Below are positions 1 through 57,498 of a stretch of 64,000 nucleotides of DNA, piece by piece (position 1 is the first letter of the stretch; the number at the start of each line of letters is the position of its first letter). Source of the DNA: Octopus vulgaris (Eukaryota); the NCBI GenBank assembly GCA_951406725.2, contig OX597827.1, positions 24,490,001 to 24,554,000 of the forward strand, in the 5' to 3' direction. The translations under genes were made by a program, and so were the position numbers. The notes under the pieces were generated by a model, which made no database searches, had not been told where the DNA came from, and saw only the letters and a program-made list of their open reading frames with translations.

Positions 1-254
1 TTTATCAATCTATCTATCTATCTGTATATATATATACACACACACATACATACAACTCATGCCAGCATGGAAAGCATATGGTAAATAATGATGATGTATG
101 TATGGGCGTATGGTTTGGATTTCCTAAGAATATGCTCAGGGCTGACCTGAATGTAAACAATAATCACAACAGAGCAGTAATACAATTGATAAGTAAACAA
201 AATATAGTGACAAGTAAACAAAACAACAAAAGCTACACAAAGATAGACAGAGAC

Positions 255-396: not shown

Positions 397-1190
397 TAGC
401 AGCATAGCCCGGCGTTGCCCGGGTATGTAAGAGCCCCTAGTAGGCAACGACTAATCCCAATCTAGTCCTTTCCCTAGAGTTGACCGTGGGCGAAGCTCTG
501 TTCGCCCAACTGTAACCCAGCGACTTGTAGCGTTTGGCCTTGGGATTTATTGATGGACATTGTGAAGCAGAGTTTAACAGGAAACTGAGAACGCCTGAAG
601 TGGATTGGTAGGTCAGCGCCCGACGGTTGAAGGTGCATGTGTGGAATGAAGACGTCCTCTCCCTTCCCACAACCGGTAAGTATTGTGGCTGTTATTAAAT
701 GTGGTGGCAAATGTTTCACAACCAGACGTGTGCCGTTGTACTGTTTAGGTGGAACCAAATTCCTGATGAGCATAATGGGCGCACCGACTTTAAACTTCAG
801 GATGTGTGGAGGCAGGCCTGGCGGTTCAAGTGAATTCTGGAATTCAACAGGATAATCGGCAAGCTCGGCGGGGTCTGCTGTCCTATCAATAGATTTGTAT
901 ACGTGGACATCACCAGGAATAGCTTCAAGTAGCTGGATATTGATGGAGTTGAGAGTTAAAAGGGTCGAGTTGCATCCCCTAGACAGTCTGTGGTTTGTGT
1001 TTCTGATTCTCAACCCCATGTCAAATTTATCCATTTTTTCCAGAATTGGGGGAACTTTTCAAAATTTTTGCTGCGTTAGTTTTGAATTATGACATTGGGC
1101 TATGTGTGTGTCAAGTTTCATCAGAATCAGTTGAAAGCTGTGGTCAGGGTGAGGGTACAACCCGACAGACACACAGACAGACAAACTGCC

Positions 1191-2753: not shown

Positions 2754-3771
2754 ATGAGGGAGAGAGAGAGACTTGATTAATGTTTTTTGTAGATAAAAGT
2801 AATTTAAGAGCGAGTGTCAATATTAACAACAGATATTAATGAGTGAGAGAATAAATGGGGGCTGGGAAACAGACTGAACAAACCTCGTTAAGTTATGATG
2901 ATTCATTAATCCATCAATGTCGAGCTAAGAGAGTTCAGTTTCTATGTTATGATACAAAGATACCTTTAAGATGCGTGTACACAGGAATATATGTCAATGT
3001 ATACATATACATATGCATACACACACACATACACGTAAACATGTACACATATATACACATACATGTATGTATGTATCTTTATGCCAATATGTATGTAAGT
3101 GTATGTGTATATGTATACATGTGTGTGTGTGTGTGCATATGTGTGTGTGCGTATATACTAGTGTATGTGCCTATATGAACATATGAGCGTGTGAGGTGTG
3201 TGTGGGTGTATGAGTGTGTGTAGTATACAAGAAAGAGTGTGTGTGTGTGTATGTATATATGAGTGTATGTGCCTATACAAGTGTATGTGTGTGTGTACGA
3301 GTGTGTGTGTGTGTATATATATTCGAGTGTATGTGCCTATATGAATGTGAGTGTATGTGTGGATGTGTGTGTGTGTATGTATATATACATACAAGAAAGA
3401 GTGTGTGTGAGTGTGTGTGGGCGTACGCAAGTGGTTACACTGTTATGAGCGCGTATCATTAACACTCGAGTAAACGTTATGACACGCAAGACAAACAATC
3501 TCTTCCCAACCAGGCAAAATGTCCATATTAAGTGTCTGTATCACTGCACTGGTGCAGTTACGTCAATGCATTATGGTTGCAACAGAATCCACAAAATGTT
3601 TAGTTTTCACTTAAATACCAGCTTTGATTACAAAATGAAAAAACATCAAATCTACCATTCTTCATTTTCAAAACATTTTCTGCTTAAATGGAAATCCTCA
3701 ACGAGAATCATTCAGAAACAAATGAGTCTTTTTGTTTCTTTTTTTTTTACTGTAAAACCTGACCAGCACAA

Positions 3772-4285
3772 TTTTGATTTCTGATAATCGCATAAGCCTG
3801 TATATTTTGACTTCTGATAATCGCATAAGCCTGTATATTTTGATTTCTGATAATCGCATAAGCCTGTATATTTTGATTTCTGATAATCGCATAAGCCTGT
3901 ATATTTTGATTTCTGATAATCGCATAAGCCTGTATATTTTGATTTCTGATAATCGCATAAGCCTGTATATTTTGATTTCTGATAATTGCATAAGCCTGTA
4001 TATTTTGATTTCTGATAATCGCATAAGCCTGTATATTTTGATTTCTGATAATCGCATAAGCCTGTATATTTTGATTTCTGATAAATAGCATAAGCCTGTA
4101 TATTTTGATTTCTGATAATCACATAAGCCTGTATATTTTGATTTCTGATAATTGCATAAGCCTGTATATTTTGATTTCTGATAATCGCATAAGCCTGTAT
4201 ATTTTGATTTCTGATAATCGCATAAGCCTGTATATATTGATTTCTGATAATCGCATAAGCCTGTATATTTTGATTTCTGATAATC
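3772..4285. repeat. 33-bp minisatellite array, left part (~15 units)
   Basis: Unit TTTTGATTTCTGATAATCGCATAAGCCTGTATA, head-to-tail, no spacers. Confidence 0.95.
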
Positions 4286-4523
4286 TAACACCATCCGAGC
4301 GTGGCCGTCTGCCAGCCTCGCCTGGCACCTGTGTTGGTGGCACATAAAATCACCCACTACACTCTCAGAGTGGTTGGCGTTAGGAAGGGCATCCAGCTGT
4401 AGAAACACTGCCAGATCTGACTGGCCTGGTGCAGCCTTCGGGCTTGCCAGACCCCAGTTGAACCGTCCAACCCATGCTAGCATTGAAAGCGGACATTAAA
4501 CGATGATGATGATGATGATGATG
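4286..4523 (+). mobile_element. Family B retroposon inserted in the minisatellite
   Basis: Same consensus as 1275-1503, ending in (GAT)n; interrupts a unit between ATAATC and CATAAG. Confidence 0.85.
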
Positions 4524-4775
4524 ACATAAGCCTGTATATTTTGATTTCTGATAATCACATAAGCCTGTATATTTTGATTTCTGATAAATAGCATAAGCCT
4601 GTATATTTTGATTTCTGATAATTGCATAAGCCTGTATATTTTGATTTCTGATAATCGCATAAGCCTGTATATATTGATTTCTGATAATAGTGTAAAGCCA
4701 AATATTTTGATTTCTGATAATCGCATAAGCCTGTATATTTTGATTTCTGATAATAGTGTAAAGCCAAATATTTTG
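4524..4775. repeat. 33-bp minisatellite array, right part (~7 units)
   Basis: Same unit; terminal units grade into ATAGTGTAAAGCCAAATATTTTG flank sequence. Confidence 0.92.
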
Positions 4776-5474
4776 GATGATAGCAGTTGGTGGTTGTAGT
4801 GGTGTAACGGATTTGAAATTGGATTCTTGGATACATGATCAAACATTACAACAAACCACCATAGTTTCGTGTGGTTGGTCTGTTAACTGACAAATCAATG
4901 TGAAGTGATGGCATGCACATGTTTTCTCAAATATTCTATAATTTGACTTTTGGTTCCTTATAAAAACCATTTGAAGCATACTTTTACCAGTCAGACAACC
5001 CAGGAAGGTGGTTCAGACAAATGGCACAAATAGATGACAAGAATCTCTGTTATCAAGCATATAGCACAATTGTTTCTAGTTATGTTGGGGGGCTGCTGCA
5101 AGTTGCAAGTAGTATTTCTATCCAAGTATGTAATTATTGCTGTTATCTGTAAAGGGCCAATGCAGTTTGTCTTTATGTGTGTTAATAAAATCTTCTGTTA
5201 AATGTTTGCAGGTGTTGTTCAGTTACTTATTCATTTAGCCCAAGAAACCTATTGTCATTCATCAACTCAATTAGTCACCACCACAGACCAGCCAACAGCT
5301 TACAGACTGTCACAGGATTATATTGCCCTCAATACATAACAGGTATTTTATTTTATCAATTTTGGAACAACGAAAAGCAATGTTGCCTGGAAGTCATAAT
5401 TTGAACTCAAAACCTAAATGGTTATGAATAAATCTCAAAGATTCAAGATAATGCATGATTCATTCAAAACAATT

Positions 5475-6006: not shown

Positions 6007-6097
6007 CAATGTGAATGAATAAGCATTACATTTAACAAAATAATCTGAATGCTAAAGAGTGAAACTTTAAATGATTATAAGATAGAAACCAACTTAC

Positions 6098-6415
6098 CTG
6101 CATAGCCCTCGGCACTTAGTAGGTCACCGATTTCCTTGCGCCAGTTATAATAATCCCAATAAGCATCTCCAATTTTCTTTTGAAGCTTCATAGCTTCTCC
6201 GTGGTGATAGTCCTCTAATTTCTCAAGTTCATGTACGAGTTCACGTATTGAATCTAAGACTTGATCCAACGTGTAACCTTTCGCAGATAACTTGCCATTA
6301 CTGTATTGGTTTTTGGGTTGAGTCTTTGCTTTGTTTACGCCGTCTTTATTGGTAGATGTCAAACTCTCCATCTCATTTGTGACACTAGATGTGTCATTTA
6401 AACTCACTGGTTCAT
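6098..6415 (-). CDS. Putative internal coding exon (318 nt, phase 1-1) of an unidentified gene
   Basis: Acceptor CTCTTTCTATTTTTTTCAG| and donor GCAG|GTAAGT bound an open, non-repetitive frame (DEPVSLNDTSS...YTLDQVLDSIRELVHELEKLEDYHHGEAMKLQKKIGDAYWDYYNWRKEIGDLLSAEGYA) with an amphipathic helical pattern. Confidence 0.65.
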
Positions 6416-6746
6416 CTGAAAAAAATAGAAAGAGCCATAAAGAATCGACAAATCTCACAGTTAACCTCCTCCTTCTGTCATTCCTTTCTCTTAATTCCAT
6501 CTCCCTCCCTCCCTCTATTTTCTTTGATTTTATTCTGTAAATGATTGACTAGCAGAAGAAATCAAATAACTGAATTAGCTTAGAGTTCAAAATGTGTCAT
6601 GAGACAATTAATTCTTCTGCAGTGGAGGAATCTCTGTTCTTCTTTGGGTTTCACTATTTTATGGCAAGTGGAAAATATTCCAATATAGGCCAGCAAAGAC
6701 TCAGGATAAGTTTCCAATTATTATGAATGGCAAGCGATTCCATTTA

Positions 6747-17769: not shown

Positions 17770-18660
17770 ATTTAACATCCATCTTCCATGCTGGCATGGG
17801 TTGGACTGTTTGAGGAGATCTGATTGGTCGGAGCAGAGAACTTGTTATGCCGCAATGTCCTGCCTTGGCATGGTTTCTATGAGTGTAGTGGGTGCTTTTT
17901 ATGTGCCAGGAGAGGCTGGCAGCGGCCACGATCAGTTGGTACTTTTTACGTGCCACTGGCACGGAAGCCAGTCAAGGTGGTGCTGGCATCAGCCACGTTC
18001 GGATGGTGCTTTTTATGTGCCACCAGCACAGGTATCACAACTACAATTTCCATTTGATTTTTATTTTGATGCTGATGTACTTGACTCAATAGGTCACCTC
18101 AAGTACAGCAGGTCGCCCTATGATCCAAGGTAAGCACAGCAGGCTGTTCTGAGATCCAAGGTACTTTGGATGGGCTGGGGCTTCTATGTGAAGCTGGTGC
18201 AGGAAACAGCCATGAACTCACGTTATTTGTCGGGTCTTCACAGTCACAGCATATCTCCAGAGATCTCAGTCTTTCGTCATTGCCTCTGTAAGGCCCAACG
18301 TTTGATGGTCATGCTTGACCACCTCATCCCATGTCTTCCTGGATCTACCTCTATCCCAGATTCCTTCAACTGTTTGGGAGTGGCACTTCTTCACATATCT
18401 CTCATCATCCATCCGTAGTACATGACCATACCAGCGCAAACGTCTCTCTTGCATGCCACATAAGATGCTTCTTATGTCCAGCATTTCTCTCAGGGCACTT
18501 ACACTCTGTCGTGTGTGCACACTGACATTACACATCATGCGGATCATGCTAGCTTCTTTTCTTTCAAGCCTACACATGTCCTCTGCAATCACAGCCCATG
18601 TTTCACTACTGCGAAGCATGGTAGTTCGCACACATGCATCGTACAATCTACCTTTCACCC
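17770..18660 (-). mobile_element. 5'-truncated RTE-clade LINE (RT C-terminus plus 3'UTR)
   Basis: ORF 18266-18658: KGRLYDACVRTTMLRSSETW...RRLRWYGHVLRM...GRSRKTWDEVVKHD, continuing into the family B tail. Confidence 0.88.
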
Positions 18661-19499
18661 TTTGTCACCAGCAGAAGTAGAAGCTTTCTATATATATAAA
18701 TATATCCAGCCATAGAAAATCCACCTCAGCAAATACTGTCCAACCCATGCTGGCATGGAAAAGCGAATGTTAAAACAATGGCAATGATGATGGCGACATT
18801 GTAAACAAAACACGACTTCATTATTGGAACTCAATAAAACTGAAAGGTTTTGGTTGCACAGAGAAAGAAAAAAAAAATCTTTCAATTTATTGACATAGTT
18901 TCCATAATTGAATGGCTTTGTTTGACCAGTTGAAGCTTGTTAATAAAATTGGTAATCAGATAACAACAGTAACCTAATTTTTGTTGTTATTATAGAAATT
19001 TCATCTACTTGAGAGCCAGTGTTTTACTTTCAAGATCTATCAGCCTACGAGTAATGCCAACAAAAAAAAATGAAAGAAAAAAAGAAAAATGAATGAAACA
19101 ATAAAAAAAAAGCACAAAATATTTCTGGCAATGAAAATTAACCCTTTGATGTGTCACGTGAAGATATTATGTAACTGATATTTCTATATCTGTTGGCACC
19201 ATTTAGGAAAACCAGAATGTACGTAAGACAAATGGTGTCTGTCAGCTAATGAATTGATTCAGTGCAGGTTAATTGGGTTTAGTTTCCTGGAAACTATCTT
19301 CCACTTTGCCATGGTTGAGGTTACAAGAACACTTCTTCAGTGGCAAATGCTGTGTATGATCAGACATGATGTTTGATTCACAACCATGAGTTGAGTCCCA
19401 GGGTGTGGCACAATGTGTAAGCATCTTCTCTTATAGTCTCAGGCTGACCTCAACCTTGTAAATGGATCCAAGACTTCCAATCCTGACTCTTAGCCTTTA

Positions 19500-42191: not shown

Positions 42192-43762
42192 GATAACCTT
42201 CTCTTTATGGATGATTTAAAACTGTTTGGAAAAATAGATCCTGAAATGGAGAGGCAGGTTGAGACTGCAAATGTGCAGCAAGGACATAGGGATGGAATTT
42301 GGTATCTTGAAGTGTGCTGTGCTTACTTTGGAGCAGGAGAAAAGAGTAAATTGCAGGAGCATAGAATAGCCAAACAGAGAGAGAATGGCAGACCCGGATG
42401 ATGATGGGTAAAAGTACCTTGGGATCCTGGAGCTGGACGATATTTTGCACAGAGAAATGAAAGACAAGGTCATCACTGCATATTTGAAGCGCCTCAAACT
42501 TCTTTTGAAATCAAAGCTCAACTCAAGGAACCTTGAGACTACCATCAACATATGGGCTGTTGCTGTAGTCCGCTACAGTGCACTGATCCTGAGATGGACA
42601 CAAGCAGAGATTGACCAACTTGATTGCACTACTCGAGAGTCAATGACAATGCATGGTGCCCTCCACCCTAAGGCAGATGTACATAGGCTCTACATGAAGA
42701 GAGGTAAAGGTGGATGTGGGCTGATTAGTGTATGGGAGTGCATCAACAGTGAAAGAAGAAACATGGCAGAATATTTGGTAAACAGCAAAGAAGACCAGCT
42801 ACAGTATGCTGCTAGTGCAGAAGGATTTACCAAAAATGGACTTGAGAGTGCTCATGAATTCCGATCAAGGACAGCCAACGAGAGAGAGAGAAGAAACTCT
42901 ACTCCATATGGAATTACATGGTCAGTTCCATTGTGAAACTAACAAGTTAAAAGAACAGGAAGCATCATGGAGGTGGCTCAACAAGGGTGACCTAAAAAAG
43001 AATACTGAAAGCCTAATCATCGCGGCCCAGGACCAGGCATTGAATACCAACTCAGTGAAAATGAATATATACCACACAAGTGCAACAGACCTCTGCAGAA
43101 TGTGTGGGAAGAGGGTCGAAAGTGTGACTCACATTGTTAGTGCTTGTGAAAGTCTTGCGCAGAAAGAGTACAAACGTAGACATGATAAAGTAGCCCAAAA
43201 CCTCCACTGGCTACAATGCTGTAAGTATAGATATGAGGTTATGGGTACTTGGTACCAATATACACCGGAAATGGTAATAGATAAAAAGGGGAAGGCAAAA
43301 ATCCTCTGGGACTTTGATTTCCAGACAGACAAGGTATTAGAACACTGAAGGCTGGATATAGTAACCTTTAGGAGGGACAAACAAGAGTGCTTAACAATCA
43401 ACATGGCAGTGCCAGGAGATCAACATATTATCATGAAAGAAAGAGAAAAGGGTGATAAATATGGAGACTTGAGAATTGAGATCGCTAAGATGTGACAGTT
43501 ATGAGAGTTGAACATAAAAGTTGTCCCAATTGTGATTGGAGCATTAGGTAGACCCAAGCTGAAAGAAACATCTGAAAACTTTAGAAGTACACTACAGTCT
43601 TGGTGTATTGCAAAAGTCGACATTACTTGGAACTGCAGGCATATTGCGTAAAGAACTGTCTGTCTGAGGGCCTTGTTGTGACTTGACAAACAGTACAAAC
43701 CCCCAGGAGACACAATATCTTCAATCAACAACCTCACGATATTTGATAGTCTGTGACGTCTA
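42192..43762 (+). mobile_element. 5'-truncated R4/Dong-clade non-LTR retrotransposon in an (AAT)n microsatellite
   Basis: LFMDDLKLF (RT), YLGI, HPKADVHRLY..GGCGL, AAQDQAL, CCHC knuckle CRMC..ESVTHIVSAC, RHD, ILWDF, VVPIVIGALG (restriction-like endonuclease); (AAT)n on both sides; frameshifts and stops. Confidence 0.88.
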
Positions 43763-53949: not shown

Positions 53950-54485
53950 GTAAGCTATAAAATATACGATTGCTCCTCTGCAATATAATTTTTCTTTCTA
54001 GTGGAAATTTCTTTTATTTTCATGCTTTCTTTTATGAATAACTGTTGAAATTTTTAATAATGATGATGGGTTTAAAATTCATATAAAAATTTTCATTTCT
54101 CCTTGTTGTTGCAGAAGTTTATCAAACATTTCTTCCTCTAAATTATCATTATCATCATTATTGTTATCATTATAATTATCATTATCATTATCATTATTAT
54201 TACTATTGTTATTATTACTACTATTAACCAAAGATTGAAGGAAAATAAGATAGGTGAAGAAATTCATGTATTGGGGGGAAAAAGCAATTAATTAAATAAA
54301 GTGTATTTAAGTATGTTAGTTGCATTTAGCACAAAATAGTGTATGTATGTGGATGTATGTGGTTGGATGTATGTATGTATATGTATATATATGGATGTTT
54401 GCAGATTCTAGTAGCATGAAACAAAGATTGAATAAAAGATAGCTTAGCGTCTCCTTTCTAGAAAATATTTGGTTGGTAATGCAAG

Positions 54486-55472
54486 TTAGTTTTCGGTCTT
54501 GTTTAGAGAAGGGAGTGCAGCTTGTCGTATAATATCCAATTGTTCAGCTTCCAGACATTTCAAACGGTTGCTTGTAGATTCCCTTGAAGGATAACGATGA
54601 CACTGGAATTTACTAGGCCAGTTAACTCCGGTGATTTCATACAACTTAGCTTTACATGCTGAGAACACTTCCTCACACAATTCTTTGCATGGCACGCGGA
54701 ATCCATCGGTACCTTCATTGCCAGTGCAGAATGGTAAGTAAACGCCACAGACAAAGAAAGCAAGATTTGGTGAGCATTGTGATTTAACAAGTGCTTCAAA
54801 ATTATTCATTTCTATGAAAATCCTTCCTGGTGAATTCTGTAGAAACATGTTAGGTAGGACTCCAAACATATATTTCTTAACTGCAGTATGGTTTGAAGTA
54901 AGGTTTGCACACATTGGAAGGACATTGTGGATACATCTTGTTCCAGTGTCTACAACAGAAGTAACATGACTATCATCTGATGAAGTCATACAATTTTTGG
55001 TTGGGAAATTGGTGCATTTCAGCTCACTAGGCCAGTCTATTCTGTGTCTACTAAAAGTTCTGGAACATTCCTTTTTAGCATCTCTGCACAGAGACCTACA
55101 AGGCAGCATTGGCTTACCTGTTGTAGGGTGGCATTTTGGCAGATAATAACCACATGCCAGCTCCCGGAAATGTGGAGAGCATTCAGTATCCATGTATGCC
55201 CAGAGTGGTTCAACCAGAGCAGACAATTGGCCTTGGGTCATTAAAACTCCTTCTTTTTTCATCGTTAATTGAGTATGTGTATAAGGAATTAAATTCCGGC
55301 ACATTGGCAGCATTATCTCAGCACAGGTTGTCGTGTTGTAAGATTCCACTTGAGTGGGTCGTTTTCTTTTCCTTGACTTTTTCCTCTTTTTCTTAGCATT
55401 TCCTGGCTGGATAACAGCCATAATTAAGAGGGTTGCCAAAAGAAGGTAGATTAAATAATTCTTAGTCAGCAT
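54486..55472 (-). CDS. Secreted protein with two tandem Frizzled cysteine-rich (Fz/CRD) domains, 328 aa
   Basis: Uninterrupted ATG-to-stop ORF. Hydrophobic signal peptide (YLIYLLLATLLIMAVIQPGNA), polybasic KKKRKKSRKRKR, and two 10-Cys domains with CSP..(F/L)xCxxYLPxC, PCxxLC and WPxxxxCxxF/YP motifs. No transmembrane or netrin domain. Confidence 0.93.
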   Translation of the reverse strand: MLTKNYLIYLLLATLLIMAVIQPGNAKKKRKKSRKRKRPTQVESYNTTTCAEIMLPMCRNLIPYTHTQLTMKKEGVLMTQGQLSALVEPLWAYMDTECSPHFRELACGYYLPKCHPTTGKPMLPCRSLCRDAKKECSRTFSRHRIDWPSELKCTNFPTKNCMTSSDDSHVTSVVDTGTRCIHNVLPMCANLTSNHTAVKKYMFGVLPNMFLQNSPGRIFIEMNNFEALVKSQCSPNLAFFVCGVYLPFCTGNEGTDGFRVPCKELCEEVFSACKAKLYEITGVNWPSKFQCHRYPSRESTSNRLKCLEAEQLDIIRQAALPSLNKTEN

Positions 55473-55539
55473 CGTAAGGGCTTAAAGTATCCAAAGTGAT
55501 GAAGGAGTTTTTCAGAATATAGAAATAAATTTCTATGGT

Positions 55540-55692
55540 AGTCTGCAAAAAAGTGACAACTATAACCAGGGAAAGTTGTTCAAGCAAAATCCGTGTTTGT
55601 GGCCTTCAGCTTCAGTTGAAAAATCTGCTTCTGTCTGGGAGTGAAGCAGATAGAAGTAACTAGTGGACCGACTGAATTATTATAGCGTCAGA
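55540..55692 (-). promoter_or_regulatory. Possible core promoter or 5'UTR acceptor of the double-CRD gene
   Basis: Minus strand TGACGC-TATAATAAT (55676-55690), about 200 nt upstream of the ATG; alternatively the acceptor CACTTTTTTGCAG ending at 55543. Confidence 0.3.
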
Positions 55693-56687
55693 GAGACTGA
55701 CTTTAAGTCTTATCTTTGTCTTCCTCAGTGGGGTGAGGACGAGTGTGATAGAATAAATTTGGTTGTCATGCTTGTCATAGAAATATAGCAAGCACTTTTC
55801 TCAAGGAATTTAAAAGAAAAAAAAAATGAATGAATGAAAAAAATATGAATAATGACACCAACAACAACAATAATAATAATAATAATGATAATAAAAAAAA
55901 ATCACCTAAGCAGCATAAATAGGAAGAATAAACAAAGTGAGAAGAGAAAAGAACTAGAAAAAAACAAACATATGACAAAGCAAAAATAAGAATAAAAAAA
56001 AGCTAAAATATAAACTAAAAACCGAAAAAAAAAAAGGAAGCAAAATGCAGATTAAAGATGTTCCTCTCCTTCTCCTCAGAACACATGTGAAAATTGGAAC
56101 CCACTTTCACATTTTATCAGCTTTTTGTGTAAATAAATACTTTATTGTAAACTGTTTGAGTTGACCTGAAAGAAATCTTGTTAGAAATTTTGCTGACATT
56201 TCTGAGATGTGACCAGTCTTGAAGAACAGAGAGGAGAAGGGGAGTGGAGGGGGTGGGGTAATGGTGCAGGTGCTGATGGAAGAAGGCGGCAAAACAGAAA
56301 TGTCTGGAAGAGTAATAGGGGGCGATGGTAGTGGTAGAGTGGTGATGGTGGTGGTGGGTCATGACTCCTGTTCATTAAATAGGTTTATAACTGTTTGTTC
56401 TCTGCTTTGGTTAATAAAATATTGCTGCACATGAGTTGAAATGAAATAAAATGTTTTATGCTTTTATGAAAACTAATTAACAAAATTTGCATATTTTCTG
56501 TATGATTATTGAAAAAAAAACCATTCGTTAAAGACATGAGATTTTTATTTGCTATAGAATCTCGGTCAAAATAATATGACTGCAATTAAAAATTAATTTA
56601 ATATTTTAGTATTAATTTACATTCCTATTTAAATTATTAGGGAAAATATATTATTATTAATAATATTTCTCAAAAATAAATTTTTGG

Positions 56688-56844
56688 TATGGCTGTGTGG
56701 TAAGAAGTTTCCTTGCCAACCATATGGTTCCATGTTCACTCTCATTTCATGGTACCCAGAGCAAGTGTCTTCGACTATAGTTTTTGGCAGACCAAAGCCC
56801 TGTGCCTGGATTTGGTAGATGGAAACTGAAGGAAGCCCATCACG

Positions 56845-56845
<1 letters not shown>
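56688..56845 (+). mobile_element. Family A SINE head
   Basis: ATGGCTGTGTGGTAAG...GGAAACTGAAGGAAGCCC. Confidence 0.75.
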
Positions 56846-56888
<43 letters not shown>

Positions 56889-56889
56889 A

Positions 56890-57498
56890 AGTGCCTTGTG
56901 TGAAGAAGTGTCACTCCCAAACATTTGAAGGTATCAGGGGGAGAGGTAGACCCAGGAAGACATGGGATGAGGTAGTCAAGCATGACCTTCGAACTTTGGG
57001 CCTCACAGAGGCAATGACAAAAGACCGAGATCTCTGGAGATATGCCGTGACTGCAAAGACCTGGGCTGCTTCCTGCACCAGCTTCGCATAGCCCCAGCCC
57101 ATCCAGAGTACCTTGGATTGCAGAAGGACCTGCTGTGCTTATCTTGGATCGTAGGGTGACCTGCTGTGCTTGAGGAGACCTATTGAGTCAAGAACATCAA
57201 CATCAAAATAAATATCAAATGGAAATTGTAGTTGTGATACCTGTGCCGGTGGCACGTAAAAAGCACCATTCAAACATGGCCGATGCCAGCGCCGCCTTGA
57301 CTGGCTTCTGTGCCGGTGGCATGTAAAAAGCACCAACTACACTCATGGAGTGGCTGGCGTTAGGAAGGGCATCCAGCTGTAGAAACACTGCCAGATCAGA
57401 CTGGAGCCTGGTGCAGCCTCCTGGCTTCCCAAACCCCGGTTGAACCGTCCAACCCATGCTAGCAAGGAAAACAGACGTTAAACGATGATGATGATGAT
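56890..57498 (+). mobile_element. 5'-truncated RTE LINE: ORF end plus complete 3'UTR (family B tail)
   Basis: CVKKCHSQTFEGIRGRGRPRKTWDEVVKHDLRTLGLTEAMTKDRDLWRYAV, then contiguous family B sequence to (GAT)n. Confidence 0.88.

What the first reader, a model, noticed from the sequence alone, without database searches (positions are those of the whole stretch)
54486..55472. Intronless secreted 'double-CRD' Frizzled-domain protein: candidate novel Wnt sink or carrier
Seen: signal peptide, a 12-residue polybasic stretch, two complete 10-Cys Fz domains back to back, then a stop. Known: Frizzleds have one CRD plus 7TM, sFRPs one CRD plus NTR, and Corin has two CRDs separated by LDLa repeats plus a protease; a soluble CRD-CRD-only protein is not a standard family member. 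Inference: it may be a bivalent Wnt-binding antagonist or shuttle, tethered to heparan sulfate by the basic patch. An uninterrupted ORF in otherwise repeat-saturated DNA hints at retroposition or a lineage-specific origin.
Basis: partly seen in the sequence, partly recalled or inferred. Interest (0 to 1): 0.75.

Follow-up and report, generated by a model that had tools for sequence, protein, structure and literature searches.

The report
Mollusc-wide secreted double-Frizzled-domain protein
This octopus gene encodes a protein made of a predicted secretion signal, a strongly basic patch and two Frizzled-type domains; the same design is found in snails, bivalves and a chiton, and it likely binds and tunes Wnt signals outside cells, which is untested.

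Summary
Window 54486-55472 (-) is one 328-codon ORF: hydrophobic N-terminus, 11 K/R in residues 27-38, two 10-Cys Fz domains, stop. It is identical to XP_029644708.1, auto-named 'protein mom-5' of Octopus sinensis.

It is not lineage-specific. Twenty full-length relatives, with named members in cephalopods, gastropods, bivalves and a chiton, share the two-CRD-only layout. Each domain forms its own clade. Contigs of runs guessed to be RNA, from three studies, cross the stop without a joint.

Lack of introns is weak evidence for retroposition: five octopus Frizzled-type receptors are also single long ORFs, and no parent copy was found.

Both domains fold like Frizzled/sFRP CRDs. Core lipid-groove positions stay nonpolar, but outer ones have turned polar, mostly in domain 2. 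Best reading: a polyanion-tethered Wnt modulator (about 0.5); no binding or functional test exists. Ten literature searches found no description. CRD-only and tandem-CRD proteins are known, so this is a new variant of a known kind.

The parts
54486..55472 (-). Single-exon ORF, 328 aa, identical to XP_029644708.1
55395..55472 (-). Predicted signal peptide, residues 1-26 (cleavage after A26 inferred from the small residues at -3 and -1)
   Evidence: hydropathy; modelled helix 4-20; conserved in 20 of 20 full-length relatives
55359..55394 (-). Polybasic patch, residues 27-38 (11 of 12 K/R); predicted polyanion (heparan sulfate) tether; also holds dibasic sites that a convertase might clip
   Evidence: function inferred
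54990..55325 (-). Frizzled CRD 1, C50-C161, ten Cys; net basic in all 20 full-length members
54936..54989 (-). Short linker between the CRDs, residues 162-179
54555..54935 (-). Frizzled CRD 2, C180-C306, ten Cys, with family motifs PNMFxQ and WPxKxQCHRYP
54486..54554 (-). 22-residue polar tail and stop codon; no membrane or GPI-type hydrophobic stretch
55473..55809 (-). Likely 5' untranslated region, on the same contigs as the ORF
   Evidence: runs are RNA by guess only
54401..54485 (-). Likely start of the 3' untranslated region; contigs read through the stop. Candidate poly(A) hexamers lie further on, near 54058 and 54018

Best explanation
It is a single-copy octopus gene of a mollusc-wide family encoding two Frizzled-type domains behind a predicted signal peptide and a basic patch, and it likely acts outside the cell as a heparan-sulfate-tethered binder of lipidated Wnt that tunes how much Wnt reaches Frizzled receptors. 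Shown: the ORF, the two domains, no membrane, netrin or protease part, the same layout in four mollusc classes, and a net positive charge across the family. Predicted: secretion; a Frizzled/sFRP-like fold for both domains; packing of the two domains into one rigid unit. Inferred and untested: the basic surface holds the protein on cell-surface or matrix polyanions; the Wnt acyl chain sits in a CRD groove (domain 1 keeps more of the outer groove, domain 2 more of the inner); the two domains, separate since before the mollusc classes split, do different jobs rather than act as two equal sites; the net effect is dose-dependent, a sink at high level and a shuttle at low level.
For: Fold: the AlphaFold model has pLDDT 88 and pTM 0.80. 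Both halves match groove-type Frizzled/sFRP/Sizzled CRDs at Z 14.2-16.0, rmsd 1.7-2.3, above MuSK, ROR and Smoothened CRDs at Z 8.8-10.6. The Littorina orthologue gives pLDDT 86, pTM 0.74. Such pTM over two domains suggests fixed packing (my reading; no PAE was given). Groove: positions equal to FZD2 F76, L79, M125 and F130 (named in PMC6333880) are nonpolar in 21, 20, 20 and 16 of 21 domain-1 rows and in 25, 25, 23 and 24 of 25 domain-2 rows (my nonpolar set included P, A, Y and W). Charge: median net +18, and +10 or more in 19 of 20 members, against a median of -4 and 9 of 56 for other 2-3-CRD proteins (rows are related, so no p-value is claimed). The patch moves: N-terminal in octopods and many snails, near the end of CRD1 or the linker in the bivalves and in Arion/Aplysia. 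Precedent: CRD-only secreted proteins are proposed Wnt modulators, and a CRD-only Fz4 splice form regulates Wnt both ways (PMC4669655 sections 15 and 27). HHIP pairs a CRD with a glycosaminoglycan-binding part (PMC8660895 abstract). The genome holds many Wnt genes (39 exon matches).
Against: No binding or functional data exist. Identity to the octopus Frizzled/sFRP CRDs is only 22-33%, with long stem branches. Outer groove and dimer-face positions have drifted: the L124 equivalent is nonpolar in 12 of 21 (domain 1) and 5 of 25 (domain 2), and the first Phe of the FGF motif in 14 of 21 and 5 of 25, against 7 of 7 in the genome's own Frizzled/sFRP CRDs; the V82 equivalent is nonpolar in 0 of 25 in domain 2. 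The kept hydrophobic residues could be kept for folding alone. A CRD need not bind the Wnt lipid: the ROR2 CRD has no groove (PMC11219042), and in Sfrp1 the netrin module bound Wnt8 while the CRD bound Frizzled (PMC2542364 abstract). Invariant family-only residues (Q80, D95, R103; Q212, E221, K288, H292, R293) could mark another ligand site. Tissue and stage of expression are unknown.
Confidence: 0.5

Rival explanations
1. A secreted CRD protein with a partner other than Wnt: it would bind Frizzled receptors CRD-to-CRD, a free lipid or sterol, or a protease (as Sizzled does with Tolloid, recalled).
For: The outer groove positions have drifted and family-only residues are invariant. The Sfrp1 CRD bound Frizzled rather than Wnt8. 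CRDs bind free fatty acids or cholesterol in other families. Sizzled matches at Z 14.2.
Against: The nearest folds are Frizzled/sFRP CRDs, not the Smoothened or pocket-type (NPC1) CRDs, which score Z 9.7 or less and 2.8 or less. No specific other partner is indicated by any search.
Confidence: 0.27
2. A matrix or mucus component: a disulfide-rigid, very basic secreted protein that would cross-link acidic polymers, with the CRDs as scaffold and no signalling role.
For: Strong net positive charge and low-complexity R/N/G-rich ends in several members. CRD arrays of 9-13 repeats with no other convincing domain occur in coral, shrimp and fish, which looks scaffold-like.
Against: Single copy here, always exactly two CRDs in 20 of 20 full-length members, and 27-28 positions per domain conserved at 85% or more. 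This fits a specific binding surface better than a bulk material.
Confidence: 0.15
3. An exon or fragment of a longer Corin-like or receptor gene, or a recent retrocopy without its own function.
For: Databases auto-name members 'atrial natriuretic peptide-converting enzyme-like', 'frizzled-5' or 'mom-5'. Fragments of relatives break at shared points that look like intron sites, while the octopus copy has none.
Against: Contigs cross the stop with no joint in 3 of 4 runs laid. Relatives in four classes stop 5-34 residues after CRD2. No long protein among the best 150 representatives has family-level domain scores. No parent copy. The ORF is intact and 69-75% identical in other named or close cephalopod relatives, 87% in O. 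bimaculoides.
Confidence: 0.04

Closest known systems
Secreted Frizzled-related proteins (sFRP1/2/5, sFRP3/4, Sizzled)
   Same: Predicted signal peptide, 10-Cys Frizzled CRD, no membrane anchor; fold matches sFRP3 (Z 14.8) and Sizzled (Z 14.2). A basic second element is present, as the netrin module is in sFRPs (recalled).
   Different: No netrin module; a second CRD instead. The octopus has its own sFRP-like genes elsewhere (L006, L007; label from sequence likeness). Grouping of domain 2 with them has support of only 80 in one tree and is absent in the other.
CRD-only secreted proteins (Platynereis fzCRD-1, -2, -3; an Aplysia CRD-only gene; the Fz4 CRD splice form)
   Same: Signal peptide plus Frizzled CRD and nothing else; proposed Wnt modulators (PMC4669655).
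   Different: fzCRD-1 is 208 aa with one CRD, and these genes were read as recent and lineage-specific. This family has two anciently distinct CRDs and spans four mollusc classes. The sequences of fzCRD-2 and -3 could not be seen.
Frizzled receptors (including C. elegans MOM-5, the source of the database name)
   Same: CRD fold and cysteine pattern; best solved-structure hits are FZD5, 8 and 7 CRDs.
   Different: No seven-helix domain or cytoplasmic tail; 24-33% CRD identity to the five octopus receptors.
Corin
   Same: Two Frizzled CRDs in one chain, the likely cause of the auto-names.
   Different: No membrane anchor, LDLa repeats, scavenger domain or protease (Corin layout recalled). The CRDs are adjacent. 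Corin CRDs were not in my trees.
Uncharacterised tandem-CRD proteins (Sycon, Montipora, Penaeus, Oryzias, Clupea, Littorina P0106; Branchiostoma)
   Same: Two or more CRDs in tandem, mostly with a hydrophobic N-terminus. Massive tandem CRD duplication in amphioxus is noted in PMC3516229.
   Different: In many of these the repeats within one protein are each other's nearest relatives, and most are not basic. In this family domain 1 and domain 2 are separate, deep clades.
HHIP N-terminal domain
   Same: A secreted CRD-fold module joined to a glycosaminoglycan-binding part, proposed to capture the lipid of a morphogen (PMC8660895 abstract): a working analogy.
   Different: Different CRD class and pathway (Hedgehog). 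No HHIP match was reported.

Membership tests
Frizzled receptor | 10-Cys CRD | tested here: met
   two copies
Frizzled receptor | Seven-helix membrane domain with KTxxxW tail | tested here: not met
   no hydrophobic segment after the N-terminus; stop 22 residues after C306; contigs cross the stop
sFRP | Signal peptide plus CRD, no membrane anchor | tested here: met
   hydropathy only, SignalP not run
sFRP | C-terminal netrin (NTR) module | tested here: not met
   no NTR match in this protein; Fz is the only family in 7 full-length relatives and 5 fragments
sFRP | CRD groups with sFRP CRDs in a tree | tested here: inconclusive
   domain 2 beside L006/L007 at SH-aLRT 80, not; 122 columns only
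sFRP | Binds Wnt and modulates signalling | not testable with these tools
   needs binding and reporter assays
Corin | Two Frizzled CRDs | tested here: met
Corin | Membrane anchor, LDLa repeats, scavenger domain and trypsin-like protease (recalled) | tested here: not met
Corin | CRDs orthologous to Corin Fz1/Fz2 | not tested
Lophotrochozoan fzCRD (CRD-only) genes | Signal peptide plus CRD only, no NTR or membrane part | tested here: met
Lophotrochozoan fzCRD (CRD-only) genes | A single CRD, as in fzCRD-1 | tested here: not met
   two CRDs in 20 of 20 full-length members
Lophotrochozoan fzCRD (CRD-only) genes | Orthology to Platynereis fzCRD-2/-3 or the Aplysia CRD-only gene | not testable with these tools
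   supplements 1 and 2 of PMC4669655 are pictures; supplements 3-6 not opened
Retrogene | Intronless coding region | tested here: met
   shared with five Frizzled-type receptors of this genome
Retrogene | Intron-bearing parent gene in the same genome | tested here: inconclusive
   none among 8 matches (next best 30-35% identity, known Frizzled-type loci); the search works exon by exon and can miss short exons
Retrogene | Genomic poly(A) scar after the gene | tested here: not met
   no tract of 8 or more A on the coding strand between 53000 and the stop; such scars decay, so this speaks only against a recent event

The most novel reading that the evidence does not exclude
Molluscs carry a third, overlooked class of secreted Frizzled-type Wnt regulator beside the two sFRPs: an ancient two-domain clamp in which unlike CRDs, packed as one rigid unit, capture an acylated Wnt (or two), while a movable basic patch parks the complex on heparan sulfate and shapes Wnt gradients. 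It is the fixed, conserved form of a CRD-array design that sponges, corals, shrimps and teleost fish seem to have reinvented separately.
Probability: 0.3. Interest if true: 0.7.

Novelty: new variant of a known kind. Interest (0 to 1): 0.47.

Why it matters
A survey of Frizzled-related genes in three molluscs lists four receptors, the sFRPs and one single-CRD gene in its main text (PMC4669655). An earlier survey set aside two thirds of 304 CRD-containing sequences (PMC3516229). A family kept in cephalopods, gastropods, bivalves and a chiton, and hidden under wrong automatic names (mom-5, frizzled-5, Corin-like), would be a missing part of the mollusc Wnt toolkit. It could be tested in cephalopod limb development, where secreted Wnt antagonists are expressed on one side of the limb bud (PMC6581508 passages). 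A natural covalent pair of CRDs would also bear on the proposed 1 Wnt: 2 CRD model (PMC6333880). If it does not bind Wnt, it is still a case of a Frizzled fold put to another use. The architecture alone is a modest surprise, because CRD-only and tandem-CRD proteins recur across animals.

Tried and rejected
The Wnt4 alignment made for it went unused.

Expression: no RNA holder was listed on record (20 of 24 rows hold half or more of the words, 9 studies; RNA is a guess for 14 of them). One of four runs laid gave no contig (X4). No cover was seen outside 54401-55809, which is no evidence by itself. The wider lay with a control run was not carried out, so a silent-stretch control and any upstream exon remain open.

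Longer forms: no hit among proteins of 672-2000 aa; weak evidence, and 575-671 aa was not covered by that tool.

Metagenome loci for intron structure: the alignment had no usable pattern, and a single snail-type protein gave 55 pattern matches and no relative.

ESM Atlas: best hit 0.89, generic Fz clusters, a lead only. Earlier findings of the scan: nothing.

Trees: the first is the quick tree, and the long Smoothened-like row fell inside domain 1, a likely artefact. I rebuilt without it on 49 of the 104 rows. The parent Frizzled subfamily is unresolved. Domain 1 plus domain 2 as one clade is neither shown nor rejected (the constrained tree was 5.3 lnL better, p-AU 0.63).

Papers not held. PMC6425005 'two CRDs' refers to Dickkopf, unrelated. 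Weak Pfam hits below cut-off (Folate_rec, UNC119_bdg, YqzE) were not taken further. Rejected: lineage-specific origin; recent retrocopy; Corin or Frizzled fragment; GPI anchor.

Full report
1. Observation. The window holds an ATG-to-TAA ORF of 328 codons at 54486-55472 on the minus strand. It has a hydrophobic N-terminus (best window 6-24), 11 K/R in residues 27-38 and two Pfam Fz matches (E 1.4e-40). Its twenty cysteines fall in two sets of ten (50-161, 180-306), followed by a 22-residue polar tail. There is no later hydrophobic segment.

2. Identity and range. The protein is identical to XP_029644708.1, auto-named 'protein mom-5 [Octopus sinensis]'. A word search gave 12 proteins of similar length. 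A profile search of 1.84 billion representatives gave 3219 hits, of which the best 150 were listed. I scored all 176 proteins then held with separate profiles for domain 1 and domain 2. The profiles came from 12 members, so their own scores are circular. Full-length members outside those clusters still score 123-161 bits for domain 1 and 113-167 for domain 2; proteins outside the family reach at most about 106 and 94. Named members are Octopus, Argonauta; Haliotis, Gigantopelta, Littorina, Aplysia, Biomphalaria, Lymnaea, Plakobranchus, Bradybaena, Candidula, Arion; Argopecten, Pinctada; and the chiton Liolophura. No named member is a non-mollusc, but many members are unnamed, so the outer range is open. 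All 20 full-length members examined have a hydrophobic N-terminus, exactly two CRDs, no membrane segment and a tail of 5-34 residues. Pfam finds only Fz in the 12 relatives scanned.

3. Is the ORF the whole gene? Contigs from 3 of 4 runs laid (three studies; RNA by guess, not on record) cover 54401 to 55798-55809 with no gap or joint. Two of them do so as single contigs that span start and stop. No long protein among the best 150 representatives carries family-level domains. The gene is single-copy in the genome search; the next matches are Frizzled-type loci at 30-35%. Of six letter differences in those contigs, four are synonymous; too few to test selection.

4. Introns. Five Frizzled-type receptors of this genome are single open frames of 580-612 aa, and the two sFRP-like and the Smoothened-like CRDs each lie in one frame with their N-terminus. 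An uninterrupted CRD gene is therefore ordinary here. No A-tract follows the gene. Against a simple dismissal: three unnamed fragments begin to align at or within one residue of the same point in domain 1, and two partial models end in 'VS', as when a frame runs into a splice donor. Relatives in other molluscs therefore likely have introns, and the octopus line may have lost them. This is inference from protein ends; no relative's DNA was seen.

5. Phylogeny of the domains. In a 49-row quick tree, domain 1 and domain 2 each form a clade with support 100 and long stems; in the 104-row tree domain 2 has 99. The octopus domains are 28% identical to each other and 22-33% to the genome's Frizzled/sFRP CRDs. 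The pair was thus already distinct before the mollusc classes split. An origin by internal duplication is allowed but not shown (p-AU 0.63). Other CRD-array proteins, with 2-13 repeats in Sycon, Montipora, Penaeus, Oryzias, Clupea, Brachyhypopomus and Littorina, fall outside both clades. In many of them the repeats are sisters within one protein, which points to repeated separate origins.

6. Structure. The model is confident (pLDDT 88, pTM 0.80), and the Littorina orthologue is similar (86, 0.74). I read these pTM values as a fixed arrangement of the two domains, without PAE or coordinates to check. Both halves match Frizzled, sFRP3 and Sizzled CRDs (Z 14.2-16.0; Foldseek TM 0.75-0.88 to isolated CRDs) better than MuSK, ROR or Smoothened (Z 8.8-10.6). 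Of the lipid-groove positions named in PMC6333880 (passages), those equal to FZD2 F76, L79, M125 and F130 stay nonpolar in nearly all rows. L124, V82 and the first Phe of the FGF motif are often polar, above all in domain 2 (counts under Best explanation). The groove is partly kept and partly remodelled.

7. Charge. Net charge after residue 22 is +10 or more in 19 of 20 members (median +18), against 9 of 56 other 2-3-CRD proteins (median -4; two of those nine are in fact family fragments). The basic cluster is N-terminal in octopods and many snails and internal in the bivalves and Arion/Aplysia. Charge seems to be kept while position is not, as expected for a polyanion tether. The dibasic sites could also be convertase targets (inference).

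8. Mechanism. Most likely (0.5): secreted, held on heparan sulfate, binding acylated Wnt through one or both unlike CRDs, and acting as sink or shuttle by dose. Rivals: a non-Wnt partner such as a Frizzled CRD, a free lipid or a protease (0.27); a basic matrix scaffold (0.15); a fragment or retrocopy (0.04). The ROR2 and Sfrp1 papers show that a CRD need not bind Wnt lipid (PMC11219042 passages; PMC2542364 abstract).

9. Literature. Ten full-text searches, one with six accession numbers of members (no paper), found no description of this family. The library lacks most subscription journals. What I saw: PMC4669655 abstract, passages and sections 13, 15, 27 (supplements 1-2 unreadable, 3-6 unopened, and they may list such genes); PMC3516229, PMC6333880, PMC11219042, PMC6581508, PMC6386478 and PMC6425005 passages; PMC8660895 and PMC2542364 abstracts and outlines. 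Yan et al. 2014 on CRD fusions was seen only as a reference. The layouts of Corin and of the sFRP netrin module, the Tolloid role of Sizzled, and the subfamily labels of L001-L010 are recalled or read from sequence likeness.

10. Verdict. A real, conserved, apparently undescribed mollusc family of secreted double-CRD proteins. It is not a member of the Frizzled, sFRP or Corin families by their defining features, but it likely works like an sFRP. New variant of a known kind; interest 0.47.

Noticed in passing
P0029, P0030, P0031, P0060, P0100, P0104, P0106: Uncharacterised proteins made almost only of tandem Frizzled CRDs: 13 in Penaeus, 10 in Oryzias, 9 in Montipora, 3 in Brachyhypopomus, 2 in Clupea, Sycon and Littorina. 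They seem to have arisen several times by duplication; the teleost ones may be a vertebrate family worth its own look.
   Followed up: partly
L013-L016, L019 (G000:C23:23471410-23492161): A tandem run of five divergent CRD-coding exons within about 20 kb, two of them near-identical; likely one multi-CRD gene or a local gene cluster in this genome.
   Followed up: no
L001 and L004; L006 and L007: Five intronless Frizzled-type receptors rather than the four ancestral ones, L004 being the most divergent, and two neighbouring sFRP-like genes about 47 kb apart on C24.
   Followed up: no
P0013, P0057, P0114, P0149, P0099 against P0008, P0010, P0011, P0012, P0023, P0049: Two subgroups of the family among snails and slugs, one without the N-terminal basic tract and one with an extra cysteine pair around the linker; possibly two paralogues.
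   Followed up: partly
window 474-1058 (-): A Pif1 helicase fragment (Pfam Pif1_2B_dom, E 5.8e-13), likely a Helitron remnant.
   Followed up: partly
window 42457-43348 (+), 18266-18664 (-), 56819-57088 (+): Broken frames that resemble the C-terminal parts of non-LTR retrotransposon proteins (recalled likeness; no Pfam match for the two scanned).
   Followed up: partly
window 3698-4880: A tandem array with a unit of about 28 bases that gives repetitive open frames in several phases.
   Followed up: no
window 6075-6548 (-): A 141-157 aa open frame of ordinary composition with no Pfam match; unexplained.
   Followed up: partly
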